DNA of 64,000 nt, taken from positions 4,093 to 68,092 of the forward strand of contig CAYWCV010000006.1 of assembly GCA_964456845.1 (NCBI GenBank), given 5' to 3'. The translations under genes and the position numbers were made by a program. This stretch comes from an uncultured Chitinophagales bacterium (lineage in GTDB: Bacteria > Bacteroidota > Rhodothermia > Balneolales > CAYWCV01). Below, in pieces: positions 1 to 63,551 of the stretch (the first letter of the stretch is position 1; each line of letters starts with the position of its first letter). The notes beneath the pieces are model-generated. The model saw nothing but the letters and a program-made list of their open reading frames with translations. It made no database searches and was not told the DNA's origin.

Positions 1-2393
1 ATTTTCTGCTCAACTATCAAATAGCCCGAGGTATCGGTTCAAGTGGCCTATTGGGAGGAACGATGCTGAACATATTCGAAGCCAACCTGGTTGCTTTTGA
101 AATGCGCGAGGGCAAATTGTTCCTCGTACAGAGACCACATCGATACAAAGCAGAAACGGGCTCCCCGCAGGCTGCATCCGTCGATTACAGCTATGGCGAC
201 TCCGTTCTGGAGACCGCTAAAATTGAGGCTTGGTCTGACGACAAATCGATGATTCTGATCAGTGTGTACGATTGGTTTGTCAGCGACCTGTCAAACATCA
301 GCCAGCGTGTACAGAATGCGGCATCACCACGTCCGGGAACTCCAGGACGCGTCACGTTCGACAAGAGCCGGAGCTATATCGAAAGCGCCAAATCTTTCCC
401 ACTGAATACCAACATCCGTGCCAGCCTCACCTTCAGGAATAATGAATCATCGGGACCTCGCACCGTTGCCGACGCACGCTTTATTCCTGTATCCATCTTC
501 TATTCAATGGCTGCTCTGCCAGAAACCCCAATGAAGCCCCGTGAGGGCGATGAGCGCCTCGGCTATTTCATGACGGTTCACAAAGACTTCACGAACGATG
601 ACAAGAGCTTCTTCAAACGCAACATCAACCGCTGGCGCCTGGAATGTGATGGTCCTGCGGGAAGCGACGGACTTTGCACACCGAAGAAGCCCATCACCTA
701 TTACATCGACCATACCGTTCCTGTTGAGTACCGACAACCTATGATGGAAGGCGTTCTCGCTTGGAACGATGCCTACGAGGCGGCCGGGTTCAAGAATGCC
801 GTGAAGGTCGACATGCTGCCCGATGGAGCCGATCCTGAAGACATCCGCTATGCGACGCTTCGTTGGAGCAGCTCCGACCAGTCGGGCTACAGCGCCATCG
901 GTCCGTCGATCGTCGATCCGCGTACCGGCGAAATCCTGGATGCCGACATGCTCTATGAAGCGAATATGATCATCGGCACACGAAATTCGCAACGGCAGCT
1001 GGTTGAACCAAGAAGTGCCATCGACGAAATGTACATGGCAACCGATGAAGAGCTTGAACTGCAGTCGCAGGGTATCAAGACGGGCAGCTTCTATGCCGAA
1101 GTGGGCGCTCAGCAGGATCTGGTGCGCAGTTTCCTGCTGTTCGGGGGTGCCATGCGGGCCGGAGAAGATGTGCCAAAGACCTTCCTCGACTCGTTCATCC
1201 GTTGGGTGACCATGCATGAGGTTGGCCATACCCTAGGCTTGCGTCATAACTTTAAATCGTCGGCCGACACACCGAACAACAGGCTCACGGACACGTCATT
1301 CACAGAGAAAAACGGAGTATTCAGCTCGGTGATGGAGTACCCAGCCGTAAATCTTGGCAAAAACGCCAGCTCCGACGGCCACTATTATAATGTTGGGGTT
1401 GGATCCTACGATCGCTGGGTGATCACCTATGGCTACACGCCCGACGACTCCAAATCTGAAGCTACCGCACGTCTGGCAGCCCAGCCAGGACACGCGTTCT
1501 CTGACGATGCCAGCGGTGCAAGTGCGATCGATCCGCTTGTAAACACCTATGATCTCGGTGGCGACCCGCTTGCTTGGGGCCGCGAACGAGCCGATATGAT
1601 CAACGCAATGATACCGCGCCTGCCCGAAATCGCCCTCGACGACAATTTGCCGTATTACGAGCTTACCGACATGTACCAATCGTTGCTGCAGCAATATTCG
1701 CGGGCTTTGGCACCGACCGTTAAGTACATCGGAGGTCAACATCTGCATCGCGACCGAGTTGGCGATCCAGACGGACGCATGCCATTCGAGCCCATCAGCA
1801 AGGCCAAGCAGCAGGAAGCACTCGACATGATCGTCGACTATGCCTTCGATGCCGATGCCATGAGCCTGCCGCAGGAGGTTTTCCAGCAGTTTGGCGCCAA
1901 CCGGATGAGCCATTGGGGGCTTACCAACACCTACGGCGGCCGAGTCGACTATCCGCTGCATCAAACTTCGTTGGGGATCAAGACATCGCTGCTGAACCAG
2001 CTGCTCAATCCGACCCGCCTGGAGCGGATACGCGACACCGAAGTCAAGTTCGGAGCCGCCAACACGGTGACCATCCCCGAGCTTATGAAATCGGTCACAA
2101 TGGCCATTTGGGAGGAGATTTGGACCAGTCCAGGCAAGAACATCCCTGGTACACGTCGTGATTTACAGCGTGCTTACATAGACGGCATGATATCGCTGGT
2201 AACAAATCCGTCTTCCGACACACCAGCCGATGCCCGATCCGTTGCCCGCATGACCCTGCAAGATTTGCACGACCGCATCGACGGACGCCTTAAGCCGCCG
2301 ACATTTGCGTTCGACGACTACACCAAGGCACATCTGCAGGAGGCCCGCGCTCGCATCAAGAAAGCCTTGGATGCCGGCATGAGCCAGAATTAG
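1..2393 (+). CDS. Zinc metalloprotease, metzincin-type (DUF5117/DUF4953-like), 5' end cut by window edge
   Basis: The reading frame is open from nt 3 with no stop before the listed TTG at 51, so the gene begins upstream of the window. The zinc site HEVGHTLGLRH (HExxHxxGxxH) is encoded at 1215-1247. The stop TAG lies at 2391-2393. Confidence 0.8.
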   Translation, partial: FLLNYQIARGIGSSGLLGGTMLNIFEANLVAFEMREGKLFLVQRPHRYKAETGSPQAASVDYSYGDSVLETAKIEAWSDDKSMILISVYDWFVSDLSNISQRVQNAASPRPGTPGRVTFDKSRSYIESAKSFPLNTNIRASLTFRNNESSGPRTVADARFIPVSIFYSMAALPETPMKPREGDERLGYFMTVHKDFTNDDKSFFKRNINRWRLECDGPAGSDGLCTPKKPITYYIDHTVPVEYRQPMMEGVLAWNDAYEAAGFKNAVKVDMLPDGADPEDIRYATLRWSSSDQSGYSAIGPSIVDPRTGEILDADMLYEANMIIGTRNSQRQLVEPRSAIDEMYMATDEELELQSQGIKTGSFYAEVGAQQDLVRSFLLFGGAMRAGEDVPKTFLDSFIRWVTMHEVGHTLGLRHNFKSSADTPNNRLTDTSFTEKNGVFSSVMEYPAVNLGKNASSDGHYYNVGVGSYDRWVITYGYTPDDSKSEATARLAAQPGHAFSDDASGASAIDPLVNTYDLGGDPLAWGRERADMINAMIPRLPEIALDDNLPYYELTDMYQSLLQQYSRALAPTVKYIGGQHLHRDRVGDPDGRMPFEPISKAKQQEALDMIVDYAFDADAMSLPQEVFQQFGANRMSHWGLTNTYGGRVDYPLHQTSLGIKTSLLNQLLNPTRLERIRDTEVKFGAANTVTIPELMKSVTMAIWEEIWTSPGKNIPGTRRDLQRAYIDGMISLVTNPSSDTPADARSVARMTLQDLHDRIDGRLKPPTFAFDDYTKAHLQEARARIKKALDAGMSQN

Positions 2394-2434
2394 TGACTAG
2401 TGACTAGTGATTAGTGATTAGTAGTTTAGTAGTT
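2391..2434. repeat. Tandem repeat block (TAGTGAC)x2 (TAGTGAT)x2 (TAGTAGTT)x2 starting with the gene's own stop codon
   Basis: Read directly: tagtgac tagtgac tagtgat tagtgat tagtagtt tagtagtt. Because the period is 7, TAG and TGA fall in all three frames. It contains ACTAGT palindromes. Confidence 0.9.
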
Positions 2435-2439
2435 TAAAA

Positions 2440-16096: not shown

Positions 16097-18209
16097 TTTC
16101 AGCTTTGTACCATCTTGATATAAACGTCTCAAACATGAGCAGGATTATACCGAACAGCAAAAAAAGATGCCATATTTCTCTGCCCATTCCCGCTGTTTCA
16201 AGAAATTCGCTGTAATTCGGGTTCGATTGCGCATCGAGACGAAGCGTTTCGGAGAGCTCAAGTTCATCAGCGAAAAATGTGCTGAGTCGCGCATCCTCAA
16301 TAGTTGCGAGATTCGACTCTTCTACAGGTAGATTAACGGATAGTACTGTAAAATCGGAACCTGACTCAACGCGCAATATGCCCGGGGTCCACTCCTGACC
16401 GGCATACCGTAGGTTGACCCCACTTCGAGTTTGACGAGCTTCAGGCTTATACGTAACTCCATTCAGCAATGCGGACACATCGCGCGACGACAACCTCTCG
16501 GTAATGTCAAGGCCTTGACCCAATACTACGCCCTGTTCTTGGCGCACATCCCTGGCAGCGGCATACAGTACCATTCGGTAGAACAGCGGAGCAAAGAGTG
16601 GCCTGGCCGGCAAGTTGCTCCACCCGGGGTCGGCGCCGAAAGCCGATATCAGCACGACCCCTGCCCCATAAGGCTGTTCGACTACGAGAGGCTCCGAGAG
16701 ATTGCTTTCAAACAACACACGGGAACGGTCGGAGGTTGTAGTGTTAACTAACCAGTAGTAGTAAAAATCAGGAAGCTCGATGCGAATGTCCTCATTTTCA
16801 CGCAATTCAAAAAGATCTTCAAGCACGGGATGGTCCCTGCTTAGACGTCCCAGTTTAGCTATCGACTGGAATGAGGCATATTCACCACGAAATCCAGAAA
16901 ATTCGGGTGCCCCAAAGCGTTGGAGCAGTCGATTGTATGCCGTCTGATTGCCCAGCTCGTTTGGGAGAATAATCAGGCTTTGACCGTCTTGGACAAACGA
17001 AAGAAGTTCGGCTGAGAAAGCCTCAGGCAATTCACGGAGTCCGTCTAAAATGACGGCTTGGAATCGGTTCAGGTCGGGCATGTTGCCGGGCTGAGTCTCG
17101 ACCACTTCGATGCGCCCGCTTGTTTCCTGTGCAGCTCGGAGAACGGGCAGCAGGTAGGAATTGAGCTCCGCGGGGCGCTGCGTCGCCTCCCTGACGTATA
17201 ACACCGGCATGGAGGCCGGTATCGATATGCTGAAGTACCGCTGGTCGTCAGCACCGAATGCATCCCCTTCCATATAGACACGGCCCGTGATATAGCCTGC
17301 CTGCTGCGGCCTGACTTCGAACAAATACGTGCGCACCTCTCCAGGATTGAGCGACACGGTGTATTGTCCTCCTTGCTGACCATCCGATTCAAGCGTCAGA
17401 AACAGGTTCGATACCGGATCGCTGTTGAAATTGGTGATTTCGGCCTCAACAATGACAGGGCGGCCCGTACCCAGTATGCGGTTCAATATTCTCAGACCGG
17501 TGATACCCACGTTGTTAGATGGACGCTCGCCCACACGGACGAACTGTACAGGCAGGGGTTCCTGACCCTGACGGACCGAAGGGCTACGGTTGGTCAAGGG
17601 CTCAAGCTGACTGCCTTGGGCATCACCGATCACAAAAAGTACAGGGAGGTGTTCTCCCGGCTCGACGGATGCATCGGCTAGAGCTGTCAGACGCTCCGCT
17701 ATGTAATTGCCCTTAGCCACAGGCTCCAAACTCTCCACGGCCTCGCGGAACCGGCCGGCGTCAAGTCTGCCCTGGACCGTCCATTCACCGTTTGTCGGTG
17801 CCAAGATAAATTGATCGCGTGGTCCGGCATTGCCCACCAGTGCTATCAGGAAATCCTTCGTCTGCTGCATGTAAGGACCGTTCACATCAACTTGAGCCAT
17901 ACTCAAGCTATTGTCGACCAAAATCAGATACAGCCTGGGTTGACCTGCCGAAGCCATCATCCCGACACCGGATGGCATAAATGGGCGCATCAAGCCCAGT
18001 ACTAAAAGTGTGATCGCCAGAAGGCGAATTGCGAGCAAAATCCACTTTTTGATGCGGATGCGTCTTATTGTGCTCTGCTGCAGCACCTTGAAGAAGGCGA
18101 TCGTCGAAAATTTGAGCGTCTGCGGCTTGCGCAGATTCAGCAAATGGATGATGATCGGCACTGCCAGAGCTGCAAAAGCAGCAAAAAACCAAGGACTTAA
18201 AAATTGCAT
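16089..18209 (-). CDS. BatA-N (aerotolerance regulator N-terminal, double-TM anchor) domain protein
   Basis: The N-terminus MQFLSPWFFAAFAALAVPIIIHLLNLRKP...KKWILLAIRLLAITLLVLGLMRP is the characteristic two-TM anchor. The 706-aa length is typical of this family. Confidence 0.8.
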   Translation of the reverse strand: MQFLSPWFFAAFAALAVPIIIHLLNLRKPQTLKFSTIAFFKVLQQSTIRRIRIKKWILLAIRLLAITLLVLGLMRPFMPSGVGMMASAGQPRLYLILVDNSLSMAQVDVNGPYMQQTKDFLIALVGNAGPRDQFILAPTNGEWTVQGRLDAGRFREAVESLEPVAKGNYIAERLTALADASVEPGEHLPVLFVIGDAQGSQLEPLTNRSPSVRQGQEPLPVQFVRVGERPSNNVGITGLRILNRILGTGRPVIVEAEITNFNSDPVSNLFLTLESDGQQGGQYTVSLNPGEVRTYLFEVRPQQAGYITGRVYMEGDAFGADDQRYFSISIPASMPVLYVREATQRPAELNSYLLPVLRAAQETSGRIEVVETQPGNMPDLNRFQAVILDGLRELPEAFSAELLSFVQDGQSLIILPNELGNQTAYNRLLQRFGAPEFSGFRGEYASFQSIAKLGRLSRDHPVLEDLFELRENEDIRIELPDFYYYWLVNTTTSDRSRVLFESNLSEPLVVEQPYGAGVVLISAFGADPGWSNLPARPLFAPLFYRMVLYAAARDVRQEQGVVLGQGLDITERLSSRDVSALLNGVTYKPEARQTRSGVNLRYAGQEWTPGILRVESGSDFTVLSVNLPVEESNLATIEDARLSTFFADELELSETLRLDAQSNPNYSEFLETAGMGREIWHLFLLFGIILLMFETFISRWYKAENV

Positions 18210-18231
18210 CTCGTAAGATAATCAAGAACGG

Positions 18232-18313
18232 GAACAAGAACAGAGCAAGAGCAAGAGCAAGAACAAGAACAAGTGCTAGTGCTAGTGCTAGTGCTAGTGC
18301 TAGATATTGCTAG
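18232..18313. repeat. Hexamer microsatellite block: about 7 units of (AGCAAG/AACAAG), then (TGCTAG)x5
   Basis: Read directly at 18232-18273 (gaacaa gaacag agcaag agcaag agcaag aacaag aacaag) and 18274-18303 (tgctag x5), plus atattgctag. It begins 23 nt upstream of the BatA-like start codon. Confidence 0.9.
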
Positions 18314-18470
18314 TCTGGTCTGTTTAAATGATAATGAATCAAAACGGATTGATTTGAGTATGCTATTTTAATGACTTTTTGAAGCCATAGCCATCTCAAG
18401 CCGAGTACTCATAGCGCCATGATAGCAAAATGTTGCGCTGCATCATTTCGTTTCAACTTACATCTCCAAC

Positions 18471-20690
18471 ATGACATCAACCCGAAGCACCAATTACCCC
18501 ATTCCCTTGCACTCGCACTCGCACTTATTCTTGCTCTTGCTCTTGCTCTTGCTCTTGTTCTCGTTGTCATCCTGCTCTCCGAAATCAGATCCCGACTGGT
18601 CCCGGTTTCTTCCCGATCAGACAGTCTTGGTCTATTGGGGTGATGGAGATCGTGACGGCAGGCTGCGTACTGACATTGGCGAGCTTATTGGCAAGCCGAT
18701 CTTGTCGCGCCTTGTATTGGGTGATACCGTCGCTTCGGAACCGGCGGCAACGGCATTGGTTCCCGAAAGCGTCGACCAACTTTCCGCTCTGTGGATTTTC
18801 GATGCATCTGAAGATCTGAAAACAGTGCTCACTGGCGGCGGATGGGTGAACAAGGGTGGTTACACCATCACCGAAGGTCGCGTTGACTTCTATGACAAAA
18901 GTGGTGTTTCGGTCGCTATGGGCTCCACTTCGACATGGACCTTGGTATCAGAGAGCAGTCGGACGATTGAACAGGCGTTAAGGGCAGCCGATGGTTCCAT
19001 ATCACGTTTGGTGATCGCCAACACGCCGGGTTTCCATCTGAATGTGGGCGAATTCGGCAGGCTGTTCGCTCCATTGGCAAATTCGTCCGTCCGATCTGAA
19101 CTGGCGAAGGCGTTGCGTGGCCTGGGCACCGTATTGATCGAACCTCCAAGTAGTGGCGACCAGGCAGAATGGCTCATTGATATTCCTGTGACGGCGGAGG
19201 TCTCGAATCTGGTGAAGTATCTTTCGGCTCGTTCGTCTGTTGCCGCATCTTCTTTTGAGGTTCCTGCCGGTGTGGCATTGAGCTTGGTGTGGAACGACCC
19301 CTACGGCATTGACGTGTTCGACGAAATCCGTTCATCGAACAGTAGCGGTACTGCTGTGCGATCGGCCATTGGTGCGATGTCGCCGCATTTGTCACCGGAG
19401 GTTGCGATGTACGTAACGGAGGCGCCATCGGCCGCGGTGGCTTATGTCAGAAGGGCCAACATGGCATCAATTGGGGATGTTTTTGCCGATTTATATCAAC
19501 AAGGCATGCTCGATGGCGAGGGTGAGGTGTTCGTTGGGCGAGATCCGGCGCTTGCGGTGGCCATATGCTCCGGTCTTTGCGACTTGAGCCGGTATTCTAT
19601 TGGGCTGCGTGAGGACGGCATCGTGATATCGTCGAGCGAAACCTTGGTGCGCAGGTTGATGGTAAACGACGGTGCTGGATCTAGCCTTGAGTCTTTGGTT
19701 CCTGCGGGTGGGGTTGGCGCCGGCGGGATGGAAGGCTCCTACGGGTGGGCTGACGTATCTTCACTGATCGCGGCAGCCAGAGCGAACGGGTGGATGGTGT
19801 CAGACAGGCCGGTTCCAGGCATCCTGCGAAGATTTGCATCTGTGGCGTATTCGGCGCGGGCGGGCGACGGAAGGCTCACCCTGAGGCTGAGGTTGGATTC
19901 AGGTTCGACTGGCGGTTCACGTACCGACCTGATTTTGGCATGGCAGTATCCGCTTCGGGATGATGCCCTCATATCGGAGCCGGTAGCAACGGTACTCAAC
20001 GGCAGGCCATTGATCGTGGCCACCACGAGCTCTGGGCGTGTCTTGGCGCTAGGTGCAGAGGGCACCCTGCAGTTTGAGGTCACGACAGGGACGCAGACAC
20101 CTATGGGAGGGGTTGAGATCTATGATTGGTATGCCAATCGATCGCCCGTCGTCTTGCAGGCTGCTGGGTCAGCAATCTACGCTTGGAGTCCATCAGGTAA
20201 TCTGCTGCCAAGCTTTCCGTTCGTGATCGACTCACCCATAAGCGCCCCGATCACCCTCACCGACATCGATGGGAATGCCGAACCCGAAATCCTCGCGCCC
20301 ACCGAAGACGCACGCCTTCATTTGATCAACCGCGATGGAAGAGGAGTGTCTGGATGGCCGGTGTACACCGACGGCAAAATTGTGAAAAAACCAGTGATCA
20401 CCCAATCCAATGGAGATTGGGCGGTCGAGGTCATTACAGAGTTTGCAACCGAGGTGTACGACAAACTCGGTCAACGAATATCAAGCCGCCCTCATCTCGA
20501 CGACATTTCAGTAGACACAGATTCGTTGGTCGCCCATTCTTCCCCTTCTGGGTTTGATGGAAGTGCACCCATGCTCTATGGTCAATTCCCCATTGTTGCC
20601 GACATCGACGGCGACGGCAGAATGGAGCTCATTGTGGTATTAGACGGCCAGATTCGTTGCTACCGGCTTCCTTCCAATCGGGCTGACTGA
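18471..20690 (+). CDS. Lipoprotein with C-terminal FG-GAP/VCBS-like beta-propeller repeats
   Basis: The signal peptide ...HLFLLLLLLLLLFSLSSC carries lipobox LSSC. FG-GAP-like motifs TDIDGNAEPEILAP and VADIDGDGRMELIVV lie near the C-terminus. Confidence 0.7.
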   Translation: MTSTRSTNYPIPLHSHSHLFLLLLLLLLLFSLSSCSPKSDPDWSRFLPDQTVLVYWGDGDRDGRLRTDIGELIGKPILSRLVLGDTVASEPAATALVPESVDQLSALWIFDASEDLKTVLTGGGWVNKGGYTITEGRVDFYDKSGVSVAMGSTSTWTLVSESSRTIEQALRAADGSISRLVIANTPGFHLNVGEFGRLFAPLANSSVRSELAKALRGLGTVLIEPPSSGDQAEWLIDIPVTAEVSNLVKYLSARSSVAASSFEVPAGVALSLVWNDPYGIDVFDEIRSSNSSGTAVRSAIGAMSPHLSPEVAMYVTEAPSAAVAYVRRANMASIGDVFADLYQQGMLDGEGEVFVGRDPALAVAICSGLCDLSRYSIGLREDGIVISSSETLVRRLMVNDGAGSSLESLVPAGGVGAGGMEGSYGWADVSSLIAAARANGWMVSDRPVPGILRRFASVAYSARAGDGRLTLRLRLDSGSTGGSRTDLILAWQYPLRDDALISEPVATVLNGRPLIVATTSSGRVLALGAEGTLQFEVTTGTQTPMGGVEIYDWYANRSPVVLQAAGSAIYAWSPSGNLLPSFPFVIDSPISAPITLTDIDGNAEPEILAPTEDARLHLINRDGRGVSGWPVYTDGKIVKKPVITQSNGDWAVEVITEFATEVYDKLGQRISSRPHLDDISVDTDSLVAHSSPSGFDGSAPMLYGQFPIVADIDGDGRMELIVVLDGQIRCYRLPSNRAD
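18509..18564. repeat. Intragenic hexamer repeat (GCACTC)x3 (CTTGCT)x4-6, an inverted copy of block 18232-18313
   Basis: Aligned by hand, the reverse complement of 18232-18303 (..gcactagcactagca cttgtt cttgtt cttgct cttgct cttgct..) matches gcactcgcactcgca cttatt cttgct cttgct cttgct cttgct cttgtt. The block encodes HSHSH-LFLLLLLLLLLF. Confidence 0.85.
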
Positions 20691-20692
20691 TG

Positions 20693-21589
20693 TTACTTTA
20701 GCAGATCGCGAAGGGCATCTTCTATAGTGGTGAACTTCCATGCAAACCCTATTGATTGCAATTTGGCGGGAATCATGCGCTGGCTCGCCGTTACTACAAC
20801 AGCAGACTCACCAAGAGCTAGACTAAGTGCAAATCCCGGCACTTTGAACAGAGTTGGCCGTGATAGAACCTTGCCCAAGGCAGCCGCAAACTGCGACATG
20901 GTCACTATGTTTGGCGCCGAAGCATTGACGGCACCACTCAGGCTCTCGTTTTCGACGCCTTCGATAATGATTCTCACCATATCGTCGAGGTGGATCCAGG
21001 GGAAATATTGATTACCAGTTCCCAGCGGTCCACCGAGACCCAATTTGAACGGCAGAAGCATCTTCTCGAGAGCTCCCCCATCGGGATGCAGCACAACCCC
21101 AATGCGTGGTATGACCACTCGTACCCCCTTGGGTGCCGCATTCGCATGCGACTCCCAATAACGGCAGACGTCGGCGAGAAAATCGGAGCCCGCCGGGGAA
21201 TCCTCGGTGAGCACTTCGTCGCCCGAATCGCCATAGTAACCCACGGCCGACGCCGAGACAAAAACTGATGGACGCTGATCGGTTGGCACTGCGTTCATGG
21301 CCTTCACGATTGCAGATGTGGTATCAACCCTGCTGGAAACGATCTTTTTCTTCAACGACTCCGTCCACCTGCGCCCTCCGAGCGGCTCGCCAGCAAGGTT
21401 GACGACACCTTTGGCACCTAAAATAGCGCCGTTGATGTCAGCCCATGTTGCGTACGACACCGAATCGCCAAAGGGTGTAGATCGGGACGTGTCCCTGGTT
21501 AAAATCACGACCTCGTACCCTTTAGATACCAAGGCCTTGGTGAGTGCCGTGCCAATGAATCCCGTCCCTCCACTGATGACAACTTTCAT
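20693..21589 (-). CDS. TIGR01777-family NAD-dependent epimerase-like oxidoreductase (YfcH type)
   Basis: It has an N-terminal VISGGTGFIGTAL motif and a DUF1731-like C-terminal tail (PAKLQSIGFAWKF). The length is 298 aa. Confidence 0.8.
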   Translation of the reverse strand: MKVVISGGTGFIGTALTKALVSKGYEVVILTRDTSRSTPFGDSVSYATWADINGAILGAKGVVNLAGEPLGGRRWTESLKKKIVSSRVDTTSAIVKAMNAVPTDQRPSVFVSASAVGYYGDSGDEVLTEDSPAGSDFLADVCRYWESHANAAPKGVRVVIPRIGVVLHPDGGALEKMLLPFKLGLGGPLGTGNQYFPWIHLDDMVRIIIEGVENESLSGAVNASAPNIVTMSQFAAALGKVLSRPTLFKVPGFALSLALGESAVVVTASQRMIPAKLQSIGFAWKFTTIEDALRDLLK

Positions 21590-27203: not shown

Positions 27204-27231
27204 CATTGGACATTGGACATTGGACATTGCT
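27204..27231. repeat. Heptamer tandem repeat (CATTGGA)x3 plus CATTGCT
   Basis: Read directly in the accA/arsR divergent intergenic region. Confidence 0.85.
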
Positions 27232-27241
27232 CTTGTTTTAT

Positions 27242-27272
27242 TTTGACATTTGAACAAATGTTCATATATTTG
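27242..27272 (+). promoter_or_regulatory. Putative promoter with embedded ArsR-type operator palindrome TGAACAaaTGTTCA
   Basis: A perfect 6-2-6 inverted repeat lies at 27251-27264. It is flanked by TTTG/TTGACA (27242-27248) and TATATTTG (27265-27272), which matches the Bacteroidetes -7 consensus TAnnTTTG. The box ends 5 nt before ATG 27277. Confidence 0.45.
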
Positions 27273-27276
27273 TTTC

Positions 27277-27588
27277 ATGAATACAGAGACACTCCTCGAA
27301 ACACGTATACCGACCGATGAGCTTGAGCCGCTTGCACACCTGCTAAAGGCCATTGCACATCCTGCGCGTCTAGCTATCGTCGACCTGCTCAGCCAGCATG
27401 ACCAGCTGCACTGTACGCAGCTGATGGAGTCCACCGGCGTTGAACAGTCACTGCTGTCGCACCATTTGACGACCATGTTCGACCGCGGGATTCTCAGCCG
27501 GGAAAAAGATGGCAAGTACATCCTCTACCGTCTCGCCGACAAGCGGATGGCGAACATCATCGATTGTGTAATTAAGCAGACTGCATGA
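27277..27588 (+). CDS. ArsR/SmtB-family repressor, BigR/SqrR-like (two-Cys persulfide sensor type)
   Basis: The winged-helix core is [16 protein letters not shown]...SLLSHHL. Cys46 (LHCTQL) and Cys97 (IIDCVI) are placed like the BigR/SqrR redox pair. The operon context fits. An alternative TTG start exists at 27250. Confidence 0.75.
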
Positions 27589-29801: not shown

Positions 29802-29808
29802 TTAGTTC

Positions 29809-29886
29809 AGTAGTAGAGTAGTAAATACGAATACTACTCTACTACTATACCACTTTACCACTCTACCACTTTACTACTTTACTACT
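29809..29886. repeat. Perfect 15-bp hairpin followed by an octamer array (nTACYACT) of about 7 units
   Basis: The stem agtagtagagtagta (29809-29823) pairs with tactactctactact (29832-29846) around an 8-nt loop. The 3' arm continues as ataccact ttaccact ctaccact ttactact ttactact up to 5 nt before ATG 29892. Confidence 0.9.
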
Positions 29887-29891
29887 CTTCT

Positions 29892-45960: not shown

Positions 45961-45985
45961 TCTATTGCATTAACACGTGACACTG

Positions 45986-46027
45986 AAAAAAAAAGCGATC
46001 TCAGCCTCTACGACCAAGATCGCTTTT
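45986..46027 (-). terminator. Rho-independent terminator of sdhCAB (bidirectional form)
   Basis: The stem gcgatct (45995-46001) pairs with agatcgc (46017-46023). An A9 run precedes it on the plus strand, which gives U9 on the minus-strand transcript, and tttt follows it. Confidence 0.75.
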
Positions 46028-46049
46028 AAAAGCAAGAGTAACAATTCCC

Positions 46050-48765: not shown

Positions 48766-49473
48766 TCAGTTAACGAAGAAATAGATGTAGACGGGGATGC
48801 TCAGAAAACCGACCGCCAGCAATATGCCGACAATCATCGCAGCAAACTGCATGGTCTTCCGCGCTGAAGGACGAATGGCACCCAGCGACTGAAAAGCACT
48901 CCAAAAACCATGGCGCAGGTGTAGGCCAAGCAGGATCATCACAAAGGTGTATCCAAGCACGTACAAGGGTTGCTTGAACGTCTCGACCACCAGCCGGTAT
49001 AAATCTCGGGCAGGTTCGCCATCCAATGTGGTCACATACCCCTCTGCAATGCCCGGTCCAAACTTGAACGTCCATATATGGATTACCAAAAAGATGAGCA
49101 ACACACTTCCCGTGATCAACATGGTGCGCGAACTCAAGTTTTGGGCGCTCGGTTCACCGGCAGACACATATTTTTGATAACCAACCGGACGCGCGCGACG
49201 CTTGCCAATCCAGATGTTGATGCCGATGGCGGCATGAAGCAGCAGCGTCAGCACAAGGCCGGCCTCTGCGATGTAAAGCAATATGCCCTGGCTCTCCAAA
49301 AATTTCGTATATGCATTAAATACAAGCCCCCCGTCGTTAAGAAATAGGGAGAAATTCCCCAATAAGTGGGCTATTGTAAACAGGATCCAAGCTATGCCGG
49401 TAATGCCAGTGAGCACTTTCTTGCCCACTGTGGTCCATGCCGACGACAGAAACGTCGCTTTTTGGGTATTCAT
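48766..49473 (-). CDS. sdhC: Succinate dehydrogenase cytochrome b subunit (b558 family, 5 TM)
   Basis: It is a 235-aa five-TM protein with conserved His residues, located directly upstream of sdhA. Confidence 0.85.
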
Positions 49474-61552: not shown

Positions 61553-61829
61553 CGCTTCAAAGTGTTATGGCGAGGAGAGTGGGGATCCCCTAATGGTGTG
61601 AATGAGAGAGTCACTAAACCTGAGATGGACAACACGAATATTGTCATTATTCCTTAACTATACAAATAGGATCTTTATGCTGCCTTCGTTTTACTCTGAT
61701 TATTTCAAAAGTGTGGCTTATTGTCAAAAAATGTGCGAATATATGGCTGATTCCCTGAGAATAGCGGCAGAGCAGATTAAATCCACACATCAACCGCTAT
61801 TCGATCGTCGTGGTCCGACTCCAGTTTGT

Positions 61830-62465
61830 ATGAACGCATTGCCAGAACTAAAGCCAAATACCCCGGGCAAGGTTTCACTTGCCCTTTTTGATTTTGACGG
61901 CACCTTAACCTATGGCGACTCATTCATGGCCATGCTGCGCTTTGAGCTTGGCGATGCAAAAGTCGTGATGGGTGTGTTGCGCTGGCTTCCGTGGCTTCTA
62001 GGTTACTTGGTCGGATTTGTGTCGCGCACAACCATCAAGACGCGCGTGCTGAACTGGTCGTTTGGCGGAATGACCCGAACCGAAATCCTGGACATGTGCG
62101 AACGGTTCACCGAGCAGAAGATCGACTCGCTGTTCAGAAGCGATGCCCTCAAGAGGTTGCATGAACATATCTCCCGGGGCGACAAAGTTTATGTCGTCAC
62201 GGCCTCGCCCGAAGAATGGGTGAAGCCTTGGTGCGACAAGATGGGGATCGAGTGCATCGGCACACGTCTGGCATACGATCTGCGCGACAAATTCGCCGGC
62301 CACCTTGTGGGAGCCAACTGCCATGGAGTCGAGAAAGTGCGCCGCATCCGTCAGGTCATCCCACTCGACGAGTACCCTGTGCGTTATGCGTACGGCGACA
62401 GCCGCGGCGACCTCCCGATGCTCGGACTGGCGCAGTACAGAGGGTATCGGGTGTTTAAGTCATGA
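61830..62465 (+). CDS. HAD-IB family hydrolase (phosphoserine-phosphatase-like)
   Basis: Motifs LALFDFDGTLTYGDS, VVTASPEEW and YGDSRGDLPML are present. The start is uncertain: ATG 61830 is preferred and ATG 61743 is possible. Confidence 0.75.
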   Translation: MNALPELKPNTPGKVSLALFDFDGTLTYGDSFMAMLRFELGDAKVVMGVLRWLPWLLGYLVGFVSRTTIKTRVLNWSFGGMTRTEILDMCERFTEQKIDSLFRSDALKRLHEHISRGDKVYVVTASPEEWVKPWCDKMGIECIGTRLAYDLRDKFAGHLVGANCHGVEKVRRIRQVIPLDEYPVRYAYGDSRGDLPMLGLAQYRGYRVFKS

Positions 62466-62467
62466 AC

Positions 62468-62610
62468 AATCATTAGCAAGCATTAGCAATGACTAGCAAT
62501 CATTAGCAGTGACTAGCAGTGACTAGCAGTTACCATCGGTGGTCATCGCTGGCATTTGGTAATAACTGTTAGTTATTGTTAGTCATTGCTAATGATTGCT
62601 AATGATTGCC
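62468..62610. repeat. Roughly 145-nt imperfect palindrome built from 10-nt tandem repeats (ARTSAYTAGC x6 and inverted GYTARTSATT x5)
   Basis: The left arm (62468-62534) reads aatcattagc aagcattagc aatgactagc aatcattagc agtgactagc agtgactagc agttacc. The right arm (62558-62610) reads ggtaataact gttagttatt gttagtcatt gctaatgatt gctaatgatt gcc, which is the reverse complement of the left arm with a few mismatches. Confidence 0.9.
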
Positions 62611-62669
62611 TATTTTTATCGTCATATATCCATCGGCCGCGAAAGATCGGCCGCAATCATTCTCTACAT

Positions 62670-63551
62670 ATGCTAATTTCAATGACAGGGTTTGGCCAGG
62701 GCGAAAGTTCGTCCAACGGCTACACGGTGAGCGCAGAAATCCGATCCGTCAACAACCGGTTCCTCGACTTGAGCCTCAAGATGGCCCCGGGCCTTCGCCA
62801 TCTCGAGAATCCTCTGCGCGATTTGATACAGCGCAACGTGGACCGCGGCAAACTGACGGCGCAGATCAACCTCGTGCGTCACACCAACGACACAGAACCC
62901 CCAAAGGTGGACGCCGAAGCCGCAAAGGCGCGCATTGCCCAACTCCGCCAGCTTCAAGAGCTTGCCGGTATTGACGAACCCATCCGAATGGAGCATCTGC
63001 TCGGCTTCCAGGAACTTTTCATGACCAGCGAGGACGACTCCGAGACCCTCGCAGTGCTCCAGGATCTCAGCAGCAAGGCTGTGGCGCTCGCACTGAAGCA
63101 GCTCAACAGCATGCGCCTTCAGGAGGGCAACTTCCTCACCCAAGACATCAGCAAAAGGATCGACCAGCTTGAATCACTTTTGGCTGGCATTCAAACCTCG
63201 GCTGATAGCAGAGTTCCGGAAGCCCGCGAAAAGATGCACGAGCGCATCAAGAACCTGCTTGGCGACGAGAATTTCGACAAGTCCCGCCTCGAACTCGAAA
63301 TCGCAATCCTTGCCGACCGCCTCGATATTTCGGAGGAGATTGTGCGCATGGAAGGCCACATCCGGTTTTTCCGCGAGGCGCTCGCCGCGCCGCAGTCGAT
63401 GGGCCGCCGCCTGAATTTCCTATCCCAGGAGATGAACCGTGAGGTGAACACCATCGGCTCAAAATGCAACCATGCCGGAATCGCCCACAGTGTAGTCGAA
63501 CTCAAGGAAATCCTTGAGCAGATCCGCGAGCAAATCCAGAACATCGAATGA
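62670..63551 (+). CDS. yicC: YicC-family stress-induced protein (endoribonuclease YicC)
   Basis: The start MLISMTGFG lies at ATG 62670. Motifs SVNNRFLD and LSQEMNREVNTIGSK are present. The length is 293 aa. Confidence 0.88.
   Translation: MLISMTGFGQGESSSNGYTVSAEIRSVNNRFLDLSLKMAPGLRHLENPLRDLIQRNVDRGKLTAQINLVRHTNDTEPPKVDAEAAKARIAQLRQLQELAGIDEPIRMEHLLGFQELFMTSEDDSETLAVLQDLSSKAVALALKQLNSMRLQEGNFLTQDISKRIDQLESLLAGIQTSADSRVPEAREKMHERIKNLLGDENFDKSRLELEIAILADRLDISEEIVRMEGHIRFFREALAAPQSMGRRLNFLSQEMNREVNTIGSKCNHAGIAHSVVELKEILEQIREQIQNIE

What the first reader, a model, noticed from the sequence alone, without database searches (positions are those of the whole stretch)
62466..62610. Roughly 145-nt palindrome assembled from 10-nt tandem repeats between the HAD hydrolase gene and yicC
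The repeat starts 1-3 nt after the HAD gene's TGA stop. Six 10-mers (consensus ARTSAYTAGC) are followed, after a spacer of about 23 nt (atcggtggtcatcgctggcattt), by five 10-mers that are their reverse complement. The outermost units, aatcattagc and gctaatgatt, are perfect complements.

As RNA or cruciform DNA this would form a stem of about 60 bp. That is far larger than a normal terminator, and it has no U-tract. I know of no described bacterial element class in which tandem decamers themselves form the arms of an inverted repeat. REP, BIME and MITE arms are not internally periodic.

The right arm replaces CTAG with CTAA/TTAG in its inner units. Arm divergence therefore follows a pattern similar to that at locus 18232-18564.
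Basis: seen in the sequence. Interest (0 to 1): 0.6.

Follow-up and report, generated by a model that had tools for sequence, protein, structure and literature searches.

The report
Tandem-decamer hairpin between HAD and yicC
The spacer between a HAD hydrolase gene and yicC holds a fast-evolving array of 10-base repeats which, in this genome, is arranged as two inverted blocks that fold into a ~60-bp hairpin next to a U-rich tract; it is most likely a home-grown transcription terminator, an unusual example of a known kind of bacterial simple-sequence repeat.

Summary
Window 62468-62609 holds six tandem decamers, a ~30-nt centre and five reverse-complement decamers. As RNA the + strand folds at -75.7 kcal/mol (z -9.5).

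A U-rich tract (CTATTTTTAT, 62610-62619) follows the stem directly. Hairpins built from tandem short repeats are already described for cyanobacterial STRR arrays.

Nine related lineages of an uncultured Balneolales-like clade keep HAD-yicC-gmk-rpoZ synteny (eight) or the yicC leader (one). A 10-nt array sits at this spacer in all eight HAD-yicC lineages. Copy number and unit sequence differ greatly, from 3 units to about 21. Long palindromes occur only in the window, L082 and L083. Contigs from different samples that encode an identical YicC have identical copy numbers.

An ATTG core stays in fixed 10-nt phase in every lineage, next to a conserved TATTTT box. No other copy was found in 64 kb of window, about 1.9 Mb of fetched loci, plasmids or phages, or (for the central core) metagenome contigs.

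Best reading: a locus-specific simple-sequence repeat that grew by slippage and inter-arm exchange. In this genome its RNA hairpin plus U tract probably terminates or stabilises the HAD transcript upstream of the yicC promoter and leader. Function is inferred, not shown. Interest is modest.

The parts
61830..62465 (+). HAD-family hydrolase gene. The start at 61830 is inferred from the 211-aa calls in relatives; the maximal ORF begins at 61602. The stop TGA is at 62463-62465.
   Evidence: Pfam PF12710 at E 2.6e-32. Gene calls in relatives. ATG at 61830.
62468..62527 (+). Left arm: six tandem decamers (AATCATTAGC type), starting 3 nt after the HAD stop. A seventh, decayed unit (AGTTACCATC) follows at 62528-62537.
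   Evidence: In relative L086 the homologous unit AATCATGAGC contains the HAD stop codon itself.
62531..62561 (+). Central core TACCATCGGTGGTCATCGCTGGCATTTGGTA, which forms the apical part of the hairpin. It is shared with relative L082 only.
   Evidence: The 19-nt core gave only chance coding matches in metagenome contigs.
62560..62609 (+). Right arm: five tandem decamers (TAATGATTGC type) carrying the clade-wide ATTG core every 10 nt.
62486..62609 (+). Span of the predicted main RNA stem-loop. Left units 3-7 pair with right units 5-1. The two outermost left units stay free in the minimum-energy fold; an alternative register uses them.
62610..62619 (+). T-rich box CTATTTTTAT. It would be the U tract directly after the hairpin. 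It is conserved as TATTTT(T)A in all relatives, including one with a different upstream gene, so it may also be the yicC -10 element.
62634..62653 (+). Small conserved hairpin CGGCCG-cgaaagat-CGGCCG in the presumed yicC 5' leader.
   Evidence: Alignment A1 at 76% mean identity. The consensus has 6 pairs with only one-sided C-to-U changes and no compensatory changes.
62670..63551 (+). yicC (YicC/YloC-family endoribonuclease). A second in-frame ATG at 62682 is the start used by gene callers in relatives.
   Evidence: PF03755 at 9e-38 and PF08340 at 5e-42. Homologues.

Best explanation
This is a locus-specific long simple-sequence repeat with a 10-nt unit. It fills the free spacer between the HAD stop codon and the conserved yicC promoter/leader block.

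**How it arose.** The array has persisted at this one site throughout an uncultured Balneolales-like clade. It turns over by replication slippage, which gains, loses and homogenises units. In the ingroup it is organised as two inverted blocks that exchange unit variants.

**What it does in this genome.** RNA polymerase leaving the HAD gene transcribes the array. The inverted blocks then fold into an imperfect hairpin of about 60 bp (-76 kcal/mol). The base of the hairpin sits one nucleotide before UAUUUUUAU. The most likely effect is Rho-independent termination, 3'-end protection of the HAD mRNA, or both. That would insulate the yicC-gmk-rpoZ-coaBC promoter from read-through.

**Shown versus inferred.** Shown: the anatomy, the fold potential, positional conservation, turnover, single-copy status and stability among contigs with identical YicC. 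Inferred: slippage and arm exchange as the mechanism, transcription through the array, and the terminator or stabiliser role.
For: 1. A strong, non-random hairpin is followed directly by a T-rich run on the strand of both flanking genes.
2. The genome uses canonical hairpin-plus-T-run terminators elsewhere: 2436-2471 and AGCGATC...GATCGCTTTTTTTTT in 45961-46049.
3. Orthologous spacers in 8 lineages all carry a period-10 array at the same place and in a fixed phase relative to the T box. Copy number ranges from 3 to about 21 units and unit sequences differ.
4. Spacer structure z-scores are -10.8, -13.0, -8.3, -5.0 and -4.0 in five of six ingroup lineages. They are near 0 in L090 and the outgroups.
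5. yicC DNA identity between lineages is only 70-81%, yet each long palindrome stays internally complementary. In L082 the same unit variants (CAATTACTAT, CAATCATTAC, CAATCATTAA) occur in both arms, in different order.
6. The + strand is more stable than the - strand by 15-26 kcal/mol in all three long palindromes, with 9-12 G.U pairs.
7. No other copy was found anywhere searched.
8. Copy number is identical among contigs from different samples that encode an identical YicC.
9. There is precedent: STRR hairpins are thought to affect transcript stability (PMC2670836).
Against: - The hairpin is absent or tiny in L090-L097, L084 and L098, so any hairpin function is dispensable.
- The stem is AU-rich and far longer than known terminators.
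- The U tract is interrupted by A.
- The T box is also conserved in lineages without a hairpin, and in L115 where TTGAAT-N16-TATTTT looks like a promoter. It may therefore be the yicC -10 box rather than a terminator tail.
- The G.U strand asymmetry is not significant for a single locus. Simulated symmetric decay gives an sd of about 11 kcal/mol and P of about 0.1. At another array, 29802-29891, the mismatches favour the opposite strand.
- Arm complementarity could be kept by DNA-level exchange between arms, without selection on RNA.
- There are no expression data.
Confidence: 0.5

Rival explanations
1. The palindrome is a neutral by-product. The spacer between a stop codon and a promoter tolerates slippage, so the array and its inverted arrangement are selectively irrelevant 'junk'. 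Replication mechanics alone (slippage plus template switching between arms) maintain them. The hairpin has no role.
For: Sister lineages do without the palindrome. Other intergenic sites in this clade also carry positionally conserved but variable arrays with periods of 6, 7 and 8 nt. Close relatives of array-bearing Bacteroidetes often lack the arrays (PMC4679880). The strand asymmetry is statistically weak.
Against: The array has persisted at one site across lineages whose yicC DNA is only 70-81% identical. The ATTG core is invariant in all 8 lineage consensus units while the other columns vary. Hairpin and T run abut precisely. The + strand is favoured in all three long palindromes.
Confidence: 0.27
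2. The conserved feature is the phased (G)ATTG direct-repeat array, not the hairpin. It would be a cis-regulatory array of binding sites for an oligomeric DNA-binding regulator, sited immediately upstream of the yicC core promoter. The model is the 10-11-bp direct repeats bound by OmpR/PhoB-type regulators or MraZ (from general knowledge). The left arm would be incidental.
For: ATTG sits at exact 10-nt spacing in every lineage, including those with no hairpin. Its phase relative to the TATTTT box is fixed: 6 mod 10 in five lineages and 2 mod 10 in two. The phased motif is found only at this spacer among 116 loci. The array always ends 2-6 nt (or 16 to 26 nt, where promoter-proximal units have decayed) from the conserved T box.
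Against: Fixed phase is also what whole-unit slippage from a common ancestor would give. Copy number varies from 1 to 9 in-phase sites. In L083 and L098 the promoter-proximal units have decayed. No regulator gene lies nearby. TTG motifs fall 13, 19 or 23 nt from the T box, not 16-18. A 7-nt ATTGGAC array at 27204 shows that ATTG-containing arrays need not be in helical phase.
Confidence: 0.13
3. The structure is an RNA-level target linked to the downstream gene. Either the long hairpin or the small conserved CGGCCG hairpin in the leader would be a substrate or sensor for the YicC endoribonuclease, giving autoregulation of the yicC operon.
For: YicC-family enzymes bind and cleave structured RNA, and affinity rises with stem stability (bioRxiv 10.64898/2026.03.25.714237). 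The element lies directly upstream of yicC. The + strand is favoured.
Against: The same study finds that larger or highly structured RNAs are poor substrates and that small RNAs of about 26 nt are preferred. The long hairpin is missing in many lineages that keep yicC. Similar arrays occur next to unrelated genes.
Confidence: 0.05
4. It is a mobile or dispersed palindromic element (MITE, or REP/BIME-like), or a DNA cruciform used in recombination or replication.
For: The element is a large, imperfect palindrome in an intergenic region. DNA-parameter folds are significant on both strands.
Against: It is single-copy in the window and in about 1.9 Mb of loci. The core is absent elsewhere in metagenome contigs. 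Nothing was found in phages. The only plasmid hit is an unrelated direct array. There are no target-site duplications or terminal inverted repeats distinct from the tandem units. It is always at the same locus in relatives. The G.T and A.C mismatches weaken cruciform extrusion.
Confidence: 0.03

Closest known systems
Cyanobacterial STRR (short tandemly repeated repetitive) sequences that form intergenic hairpins, e.g. between hupS and hupL (PMC2670836; related arrays in PMC2408588)
   Same: Short tandem units lie in intergenic regions of co-oriented genes. Arrays in opposite orientation can pair into a hairpin. The proposed roles are transcript stability or coupling between genes. Function is unproven.
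   Different: STRR units are usually 7 nt, and the same unit is dispersed at many loci in a genome. Here the unit is 10 nt and is confined to one locus. The organism is a Balneolales-like bacterium. The stem is much longer, at about 60 bp.
Long simple-sequence repeats with 5-11-nt units (Mrazek et al. 2007, as summarised in PMC4679880), including TAACTGA heptamer arrays of Beggiatoaceae, Cyanobacteria and Bacteroidetes
   Same: Intergenic tandem arrays are rich in stop codons. Their phylogenetic distribution is sporadic. Close relatives with the same gene neighbourhood often have shorter spacers without the array.
   Different: Those arrays are direct repeats, and mostly lie just upstream of start codons in Beggiatoaceae. 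An inverted pair forming a long hairpin is exceptional there: one indirect repeat against 169 direct sets.
Rho-independent (intrinsic) terminators
   Same: A hairpin lies immediately upstream of a U-rich tract. It is downstream of a stop codon and on the sense strand.
   Different: The stem is 4-10 times longer, AU-rich and internally periodic. The U tract is interrupted. Termination has not been shown.
REP/BIME intergenic palindromes of enterobacteria
   Same: Imperfect palindromes between genes of one orientation are thought to act as RNA hairpins that stabilise upstream mRNA or attenuate read-through (general knowledge).
   Different: REPs are 20-40-nt units present in hundreds of dispersed copies with a family consensus, and they are not internally periodic. 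This element is single-copy.
Phase-variable contingency repeats in promoters (e.g. Moraxella uspA2 AGAT repeats, cited in PMC4679880)
   Same: A tandem repeat lies next to or within promoter/leader DNA, and copy number differs between lineages.
   Different: No copy-number variation is seen among contigs from different samples that share an identical YicC. The unit is 10 nt. The neighbouring genes are housekeeping genes.

Membership tests
Long simple-sequence repeat (5-11-nt unit) / STRR-like array | Head-to-tail copies of a short unit, longer than expected by chance | tested here: met
   TRF scores of 50-89 at period 10/20/30. Phased ATTG x3 occurs 2 times against 0.04 expected.
Long simple-sequence repeat (5-11-nt unit) / STRR-like array | Intergenic position, with copy number and unit varying between relatives | tested here: met
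   The HAD-yicC spacer is 102-288 nt in 8 lineages, with 3 to about 21 units.
STRR sensu stricto | The same unit dispersed at many loci of the genome | tested here: not met
   The decamer array occurs only at this locus in the 64-kb window and in 116 fetched loci. The rest of the genome could not be searched.
Rho-independent terminator | A stable hairpin ending 0-2 nt before a U-rich tract, on the sense strand downstream of a stop codon | tested here: met
   The stem ends at 62609 and TATTTTTAT is at 62611-62619. Pairing probability of the last stem bases is 0.9-1.0.
Rho-independent terminator | A short GC-rich stem (about 5-15 bp) with a 3-8-nt loop | tested here: not met
   The fold has 60 pairs, of which 31 are AU. 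The simple terminator scan does not call it.
Rho-independent terminator | Transcripts actually end there | not testable with these tools
   No RNA-seq or Term-seq data are available.
REP/BIME or MITE | Many dispersed copies with a family consensus (for MITEs, also terminal inverted repeats and target-site duplication) | tested here: not met
   No second copy was found. No flanking direct duplication is present.
Phase-variable contingency locus | Copy number varies among closely related strains | tested here: not met
   Spacer length is identical within each set of contigs from different samples that encode an identical YicC: L086-89 (153 nt), L090-92 (102 nt; in L093 the contig starts within HAD but the array is the same), L094-97 (102 nt) and L084/85 (174 nt). 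Only SNPs differ.
Direct-repeat operator of an OmpR/PhoB- or MraZ-type regulator | A conserved short motif repeated at 10-11-bp spacing next to the core promoter | tested here: inconclusive
   ATTG at 10-nt spacing is conserved in all lineages. However, the promoter is not mapped, copy number is unconstrained and no regulator gene is nearby.
Rfam RNA families | Score at or above the family gathering threshold | tested here: not met
   There were 0 hits at gathering thresholds. Only sub-threshold plant miRNA-precursor models matched, at 45.5 bits against 110.
CRISPR array | Repeats of 23-47 nt separated by unique spacers | tested here: not met
   The units are contiguous 10-nt repeats with no spacers.

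The most novel reading that the evidence does not exclude
In this uncultured Balneolales-like clade, hairpins built from tandem repeats could be a selectively maintained class of 'self-renewing' intergenic RNA structures. Their sequence turns over by slippage and arm-to-arm exchange while the structure persists, along with a phased ATTG core next to the yicC promoter. In that case the HAD-yicC element would couple termination of the upstream gene to control of the yicC-gmk-rpoZ operon, possibly through a protein that reads the phased ATTG/CAAU motifs.
Probability: 0.15. Interest if true: 0.55.

Novelty: new variant of a known kind. Interest (0 to 1): 0.33.

Why it matters
If the hairpin does terminate or stabilise transcripts, it shows that a terminator can be built and continually rebuilt from a simple-sequence repeat. 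Structure would be kept while sequence and length drift. Alignment-based or motif-based terminator and ncRNA finders would miss such elements.

The finding also extends STRR-like, hairpin-forming arrays beyond cyanobacteria to a Balneolales-like lineage.

There is a practical annotation point. In two relatives the array misled gene callers into extending yicC by about 27 codons.

If the element is neutral, it is still a clean natural example of how a minisatellite can persist at one intergenic site across deep divergence.

Tried and rejected
1. **Exact look-up of the window's YicC** (two start choices) found nothing.
3. **Metagenome scan for the central core** CCATYGGTGGTCATCGCTG returned 16 chance matches in unrelated coding DNA. 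This spent the only scan of that collection.
4. **Bacteroidetes-type promoter motif** TAnnTTTG is not enriched in the window: 25 found against 22.7 expected.
5. **-35 amplification idea** (that the array's TTG motifs are -35 hexamers for TATTTT). Rejected because the spacings are 13, 19 or 23 nt, not 16-18.
6. **Automatic self-complementarity.** The AATSATT core has dyad symmetry, so I considered that the array pairs with itself automatically. Rejected: a left unit differs from its own reverse complement in the linker and at the centre, so the right arm is a true inverted copy.
7. **Fur/Zur-like AATnATT boxes and the IHF consensus** were considered by eye and dropped. The outgroup units (GAGATTGTAC, GCGATTGAAC) lack them.
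8. **G.U strand asymmetry as proof of RNA-level selection.** Downgraded after simulation gave an sd of about 11 kcal/mol.
9. **The simple promoter and terminator scans** give counts equal to shuffles and are uninformative here.
10. **Rfam** gave only generic long-hairpin, sub-threshold hits.
11. **The plasmid hit** is an unrelated direct (AAGCATTAGC)x4.5 array in Pseudoalteromonas.

Full report
**1. Observation**

The HAD gene (PF12710) stops at TGA 62463-62465.

Six tandem decamers follow at 62468-62527: AATCATTAGC, AAGCATTAGC, AATGACTAGC, AATCATTAGC, AGTGACTAGC, AGTGACTAGC. Next come a decayed seventh unit and a centre (62531-62561). Five decamers at 62560-62609 are the reverse complement of the left units.

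TRF and the repeat finder confirm the period and the arms: 47 nt at 85% complementarity and 69 nt at 77%.

| Fold | + strand | - strand |
|---|---|---|
| RNA parameters | -75.7 kcal/mol, z -9.5 | -60.9, z -8.1 |
| DNA parameters | -40.7, z -9.4 | -35.0, z -7.3 |

The + strand RNA fold has 60 pairs, 9 of them G.U.

One statement is wrong. The stem ends at 62609 and is followed at once by C-TATTTTTAT (62610-62619).

**2. Context and source**

yicC (PF03755 and PF08340) starts at 62670, or at 62682.

The closest YicC proteins, at 80-92% identity, come from unnamed metagenome contigs. The next tier, at about 45-54%, is annotated Balneolales, Cyclonatronaceae or Rhodohalobacter. A 100% identical neighbour protein exists on a 78-kb NCBI contig.

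Eight related lineages keep the order RND pump | HAD > yicC > gmk > rpoZ > coaBC. They are represented by L081, L082, L083, L084/85, L086-89, L090-93, L094-97 and L098. A ninth lineage, L115 at 74% YicC identity, has UbiA rather than HAD upstream of yicC.

**3. Comparative anatomy**

All eight HAD-yicC lineages have a period-10 array between the HAD stop and a conserved block. That block consists of TATTTT(T)A, a small hairpin CGGCYG-N8-CGGCCG, and the ATG. It is 76% identical across lineages (alignment A1). The array itself cannot be aligned.

| Lineage | State of the array |
|---|---|
| L090-97 | 3 units of CGTGATTGTT; the stop codon lies inside unit 1; no hairpin |
| L098 | 5 direct GATTGAACGC-type units |
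| L084/85 | 6 units of GAGATTGTAC plus a weak left block |
| L086-89 | 5 direct units of AATCATGAGC (the unit contains the HAD stop) plus one right-type unit |
| L081 | a 21-nt palindrome, CATGAACAAT-G-ATTGTTCATG |
| Window | 6 + 5 units |
| L083 | 7 + 9 units |
| L082 | about 10 + 11 units; shares the central core with the window |

L115 keeps the T box and the hairpin but has no array.

Structure z-scores for the spacer up to the T box are -10.8 (window), -13.0 (L082), -8.3 (L083), -5.0 (L086) and -4.0 (L081). They are near 0 for L084, L090, L098 and L115.

yicC DNA identity among lineages is only 70-81%. An NJ tree places L084 and L098 outside an ingroup in which the palindromic lineages are interleaved with L090/94 and L081. 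On that single-gene tree, the inverted arrangement is probably ancestral to the ingroup and was later collapsed in some branches.

Contigs from different samples that encode an identical YicC have identical copy numbers. The array is therefore not a rapidly switching contingency locus.

**4. What is conserved within the array**

I counted units in phase from the T box, without anchoring on any motif. The unit logo is T-M-R-T-G-A-T-T-G-W. The ATTG columns carry 1.4-1.7 bits and are invariant in all eight lineage consensus units. The other columns carry 0.4-1.1 bits and take 2-3 states.

The distance from the last ATTG to TATTTT is 6 mod 10 in five lineages, 5 in L086, and 2 mod 10 in the window and L082. 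Whole-unit slippage from one ancestor would preserve this phase, so it does not by itself prove a binding array.

Three phased ATTG motifs occur at this spacer in 17 loci and nowhere else in 116 loci.

**5. Arms**

With the right arm reverse-complemented, the window reads A A' B A B' B' on the left and A A B B on the right.

In L082 both arms carry the same variants (CAATTACTAT, CAATCATTAC, CAATCATTAA) in different orders. In L083 the left arm is homogenised to CAGTGATTAG x6, while the right arm keeps CAATGAYTAT and CAATTACTAT.

So units are homogenised within an arm and variants are shared between arms. This implies either DNA-level exchange between arms or selection for pairing.

The + strand is favoured by 15-26 kcal/mol in all three long palindromes. 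A simulation of symmetric decay gives an sd of about 11 kcal/mol, so this is suggestive only.

**6. Copies elsewhere**

None were found.
- The window has a single locus.
- In the +/-10 kb around yicC in relatives, this spacer holds the only strong array.
- The central core gave 16 chance coding matches in metagenome contigs.
- Phages gave no match.
- The one plasmid hit is an unrelated direct (AAGCATTAGC)x4.5 array in Pseudoalteromonas.
- Rfam gave nothing at gathering thresholds and only sub-threshold plant miRNA-precursor models in E-value mode.

**7. A habit of the clade**

Other strong arrays in the window are also intergenic or at gene edges: 2391-2436, 18223-18303/18509-18561, 27204-27229 and 29802-29891. 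In relative L116 they sit at the same places with different copy numbers or units.

**8. Mechanism**

*Shown.* The array is transcribed-strand sense for both neighbours. It starts at the stop codon. It can fold into a very stable hairpin whose base abuts a U-rich tract.

The genome has ordinary hairpin-plus-T-run terminators. At one other locus it has a canonical sigma-70-like promoter, TTGACA-N16-TATATT.

*Inferred.* The hairpin plus U tract terminates or 3'-stabilises the HAD transcript and insulates the yicC operon.

*Caveat.* The T box is conserved even where there is no hairpin. In L115 it has a TTGAAT 16 nt upstream. It may therefore be the yicC -10 element, or both that and a U tract. 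The TTG motifs of the array are not at -35 distance.

The rivals are neutral slippage product, a phased protein-binding array, a YicC-linked RNA target, and a mobile element or cruciform. They are weighed in the rival section. The YicC idea is weakened by evidence that large, highly structured RNAs are poor YicC substrates.

**9. Known relatives**

Hairpin-forming tandem short repeats are described for cyanobacterial STRRs (PMC2670836; array pairs in PMC2408588). Intergenic long simple-sequence repeats with 5-11-nt units, including in Bacteroidetes, are an established category (PMC4679880).

This element shares their nature. It differs in four ways:
- a 10-nt unit;
- confinement to a single locus;
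- a very long stem;
- a conserved phased core next to a promoter-like box.

**10. Verdict**

The feature is real and non-random. It is a new variant of a known kind. A terminator or stabiliser role is plausible but unproven. Interest is modest.

Noticed in passing
window 18223-18303 and 18506-18578: An inverted pair of hexamer arrays, (CAAGAA/GCAAGA)n(AGTGCT)n ... (GCACTC)n(TCTTGC)n, flanks the roughly 200-nt divergent spacer between a BatA-type gene (ATG at 18209, - strand) and a 739-aa FG-GAP protein. The right array lies inside that protein's Leu-rich N-terminal signal peptide (…HSHSHLFLLLLLLLLFSLSSC), where the perfect complement CTAG would create stop codons. In relative L116 the left array is only a short degenerate run, and the right one is (TGCTCT)x6.
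   Followed up: partly
window 27204-27229 (L116 18806-18844): The array (ATTGGAC)x3.7 is (ATTGGAC)x5.6 at the same place in a relative. It sits just upstream of a canonical-looking promoter, TTGACA (27243-27248)-N16-TATATT (27265-27270). The spacer contains the palindrome TGAACAAATGTTCA (operator-like). The ATG of an ArsR/HTH_5 gene follows at 27277, which suggests a leaderless mRNA.
   Followed up: partly
window 29802-29891 (L116 ~21418-21570): The whole spacer, from the stop of a lactamase_B-rhodanese gene to the ATG of a Sulf_transp gene, is filled by a perfect 15-bp hairpin (AGTAGTAGAGTAGTA / TACTACTCTACTACT) plus TACCACTY octamer repeats. The relative has a longer, different version. Here the arm variants would give A.C mismatches on the sense strand, the opposite of the 62466 locus.
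   Followed up: partly
window 2391-2436 and 2436-2471: (TAGTGAC)x4.6 followed by (TTAGTAGT)x2.4 starts on the stop codon of the 780-aa gene and provides stops in all frames. An ordinary terminator hairpin, AAAATCCCCTCTCTAAA/TTTAGAGGGGGGATTTT, follows immediately.
   Followed up: no
window 62610-62669; alignment A1: The block TATTTT(T)A ... CGGCYG-N8-CGGCCGCAA ... (T)ATG-N9-ATGAC upstream of yicC is 76% conserved across lineages. In L115 it is retained behind a different upstream gene. The small hairpin shows only one-sided C-to-U changes, so it is unproven. It may be a 5'-terminal stabilising stem-loop or a direct repeat of ATCGGCCGC.
   Followed up: partly
window 62586-62669; proteins P0001, P0002: Gene callers extended yicC into the right arm of the repeat in two relatives (316 and 315 aa instead of 289-293). 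The same TTG-started extension exists as an ORF in the window (62586). The extension is not conserved and looks like an annotation artefact caused by the array.
   Followed up: yes
L117 1500-1546 (Pseudoalteromonas sp. HL-AS1 NZ_CP133570.1, ~49258-49298): An independent direct array, (AAGCATTAGC)x4.5, has a unit identical to one unit of the window's left arm. It lies in an unannotated stretch of an unrelated gammaproteobacterial replicon and has no inverted partner. This is probably coincidence.
   Followed up: partly
window 61865-61884: A terminator-like hairpin, GGGCAAGGTTTCACTTGCCC followed by TTTTTGATTT, lies inside the HAD coding region, just after its likely start at 61830. The count of such sites equals that of shuffles, so it is probably chance.
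   Followed up: no
L115 916-3450: In the lineage at 74% YicC identity, a UbiA prenyltransferase gene lies between HAD and yicC. HAD is preceded by a short-chain dehydrogenase instead of the RND pump genes. The HAD-yicC junction that hosts the array is therefore specific to the closer clade.
   Followed up: no
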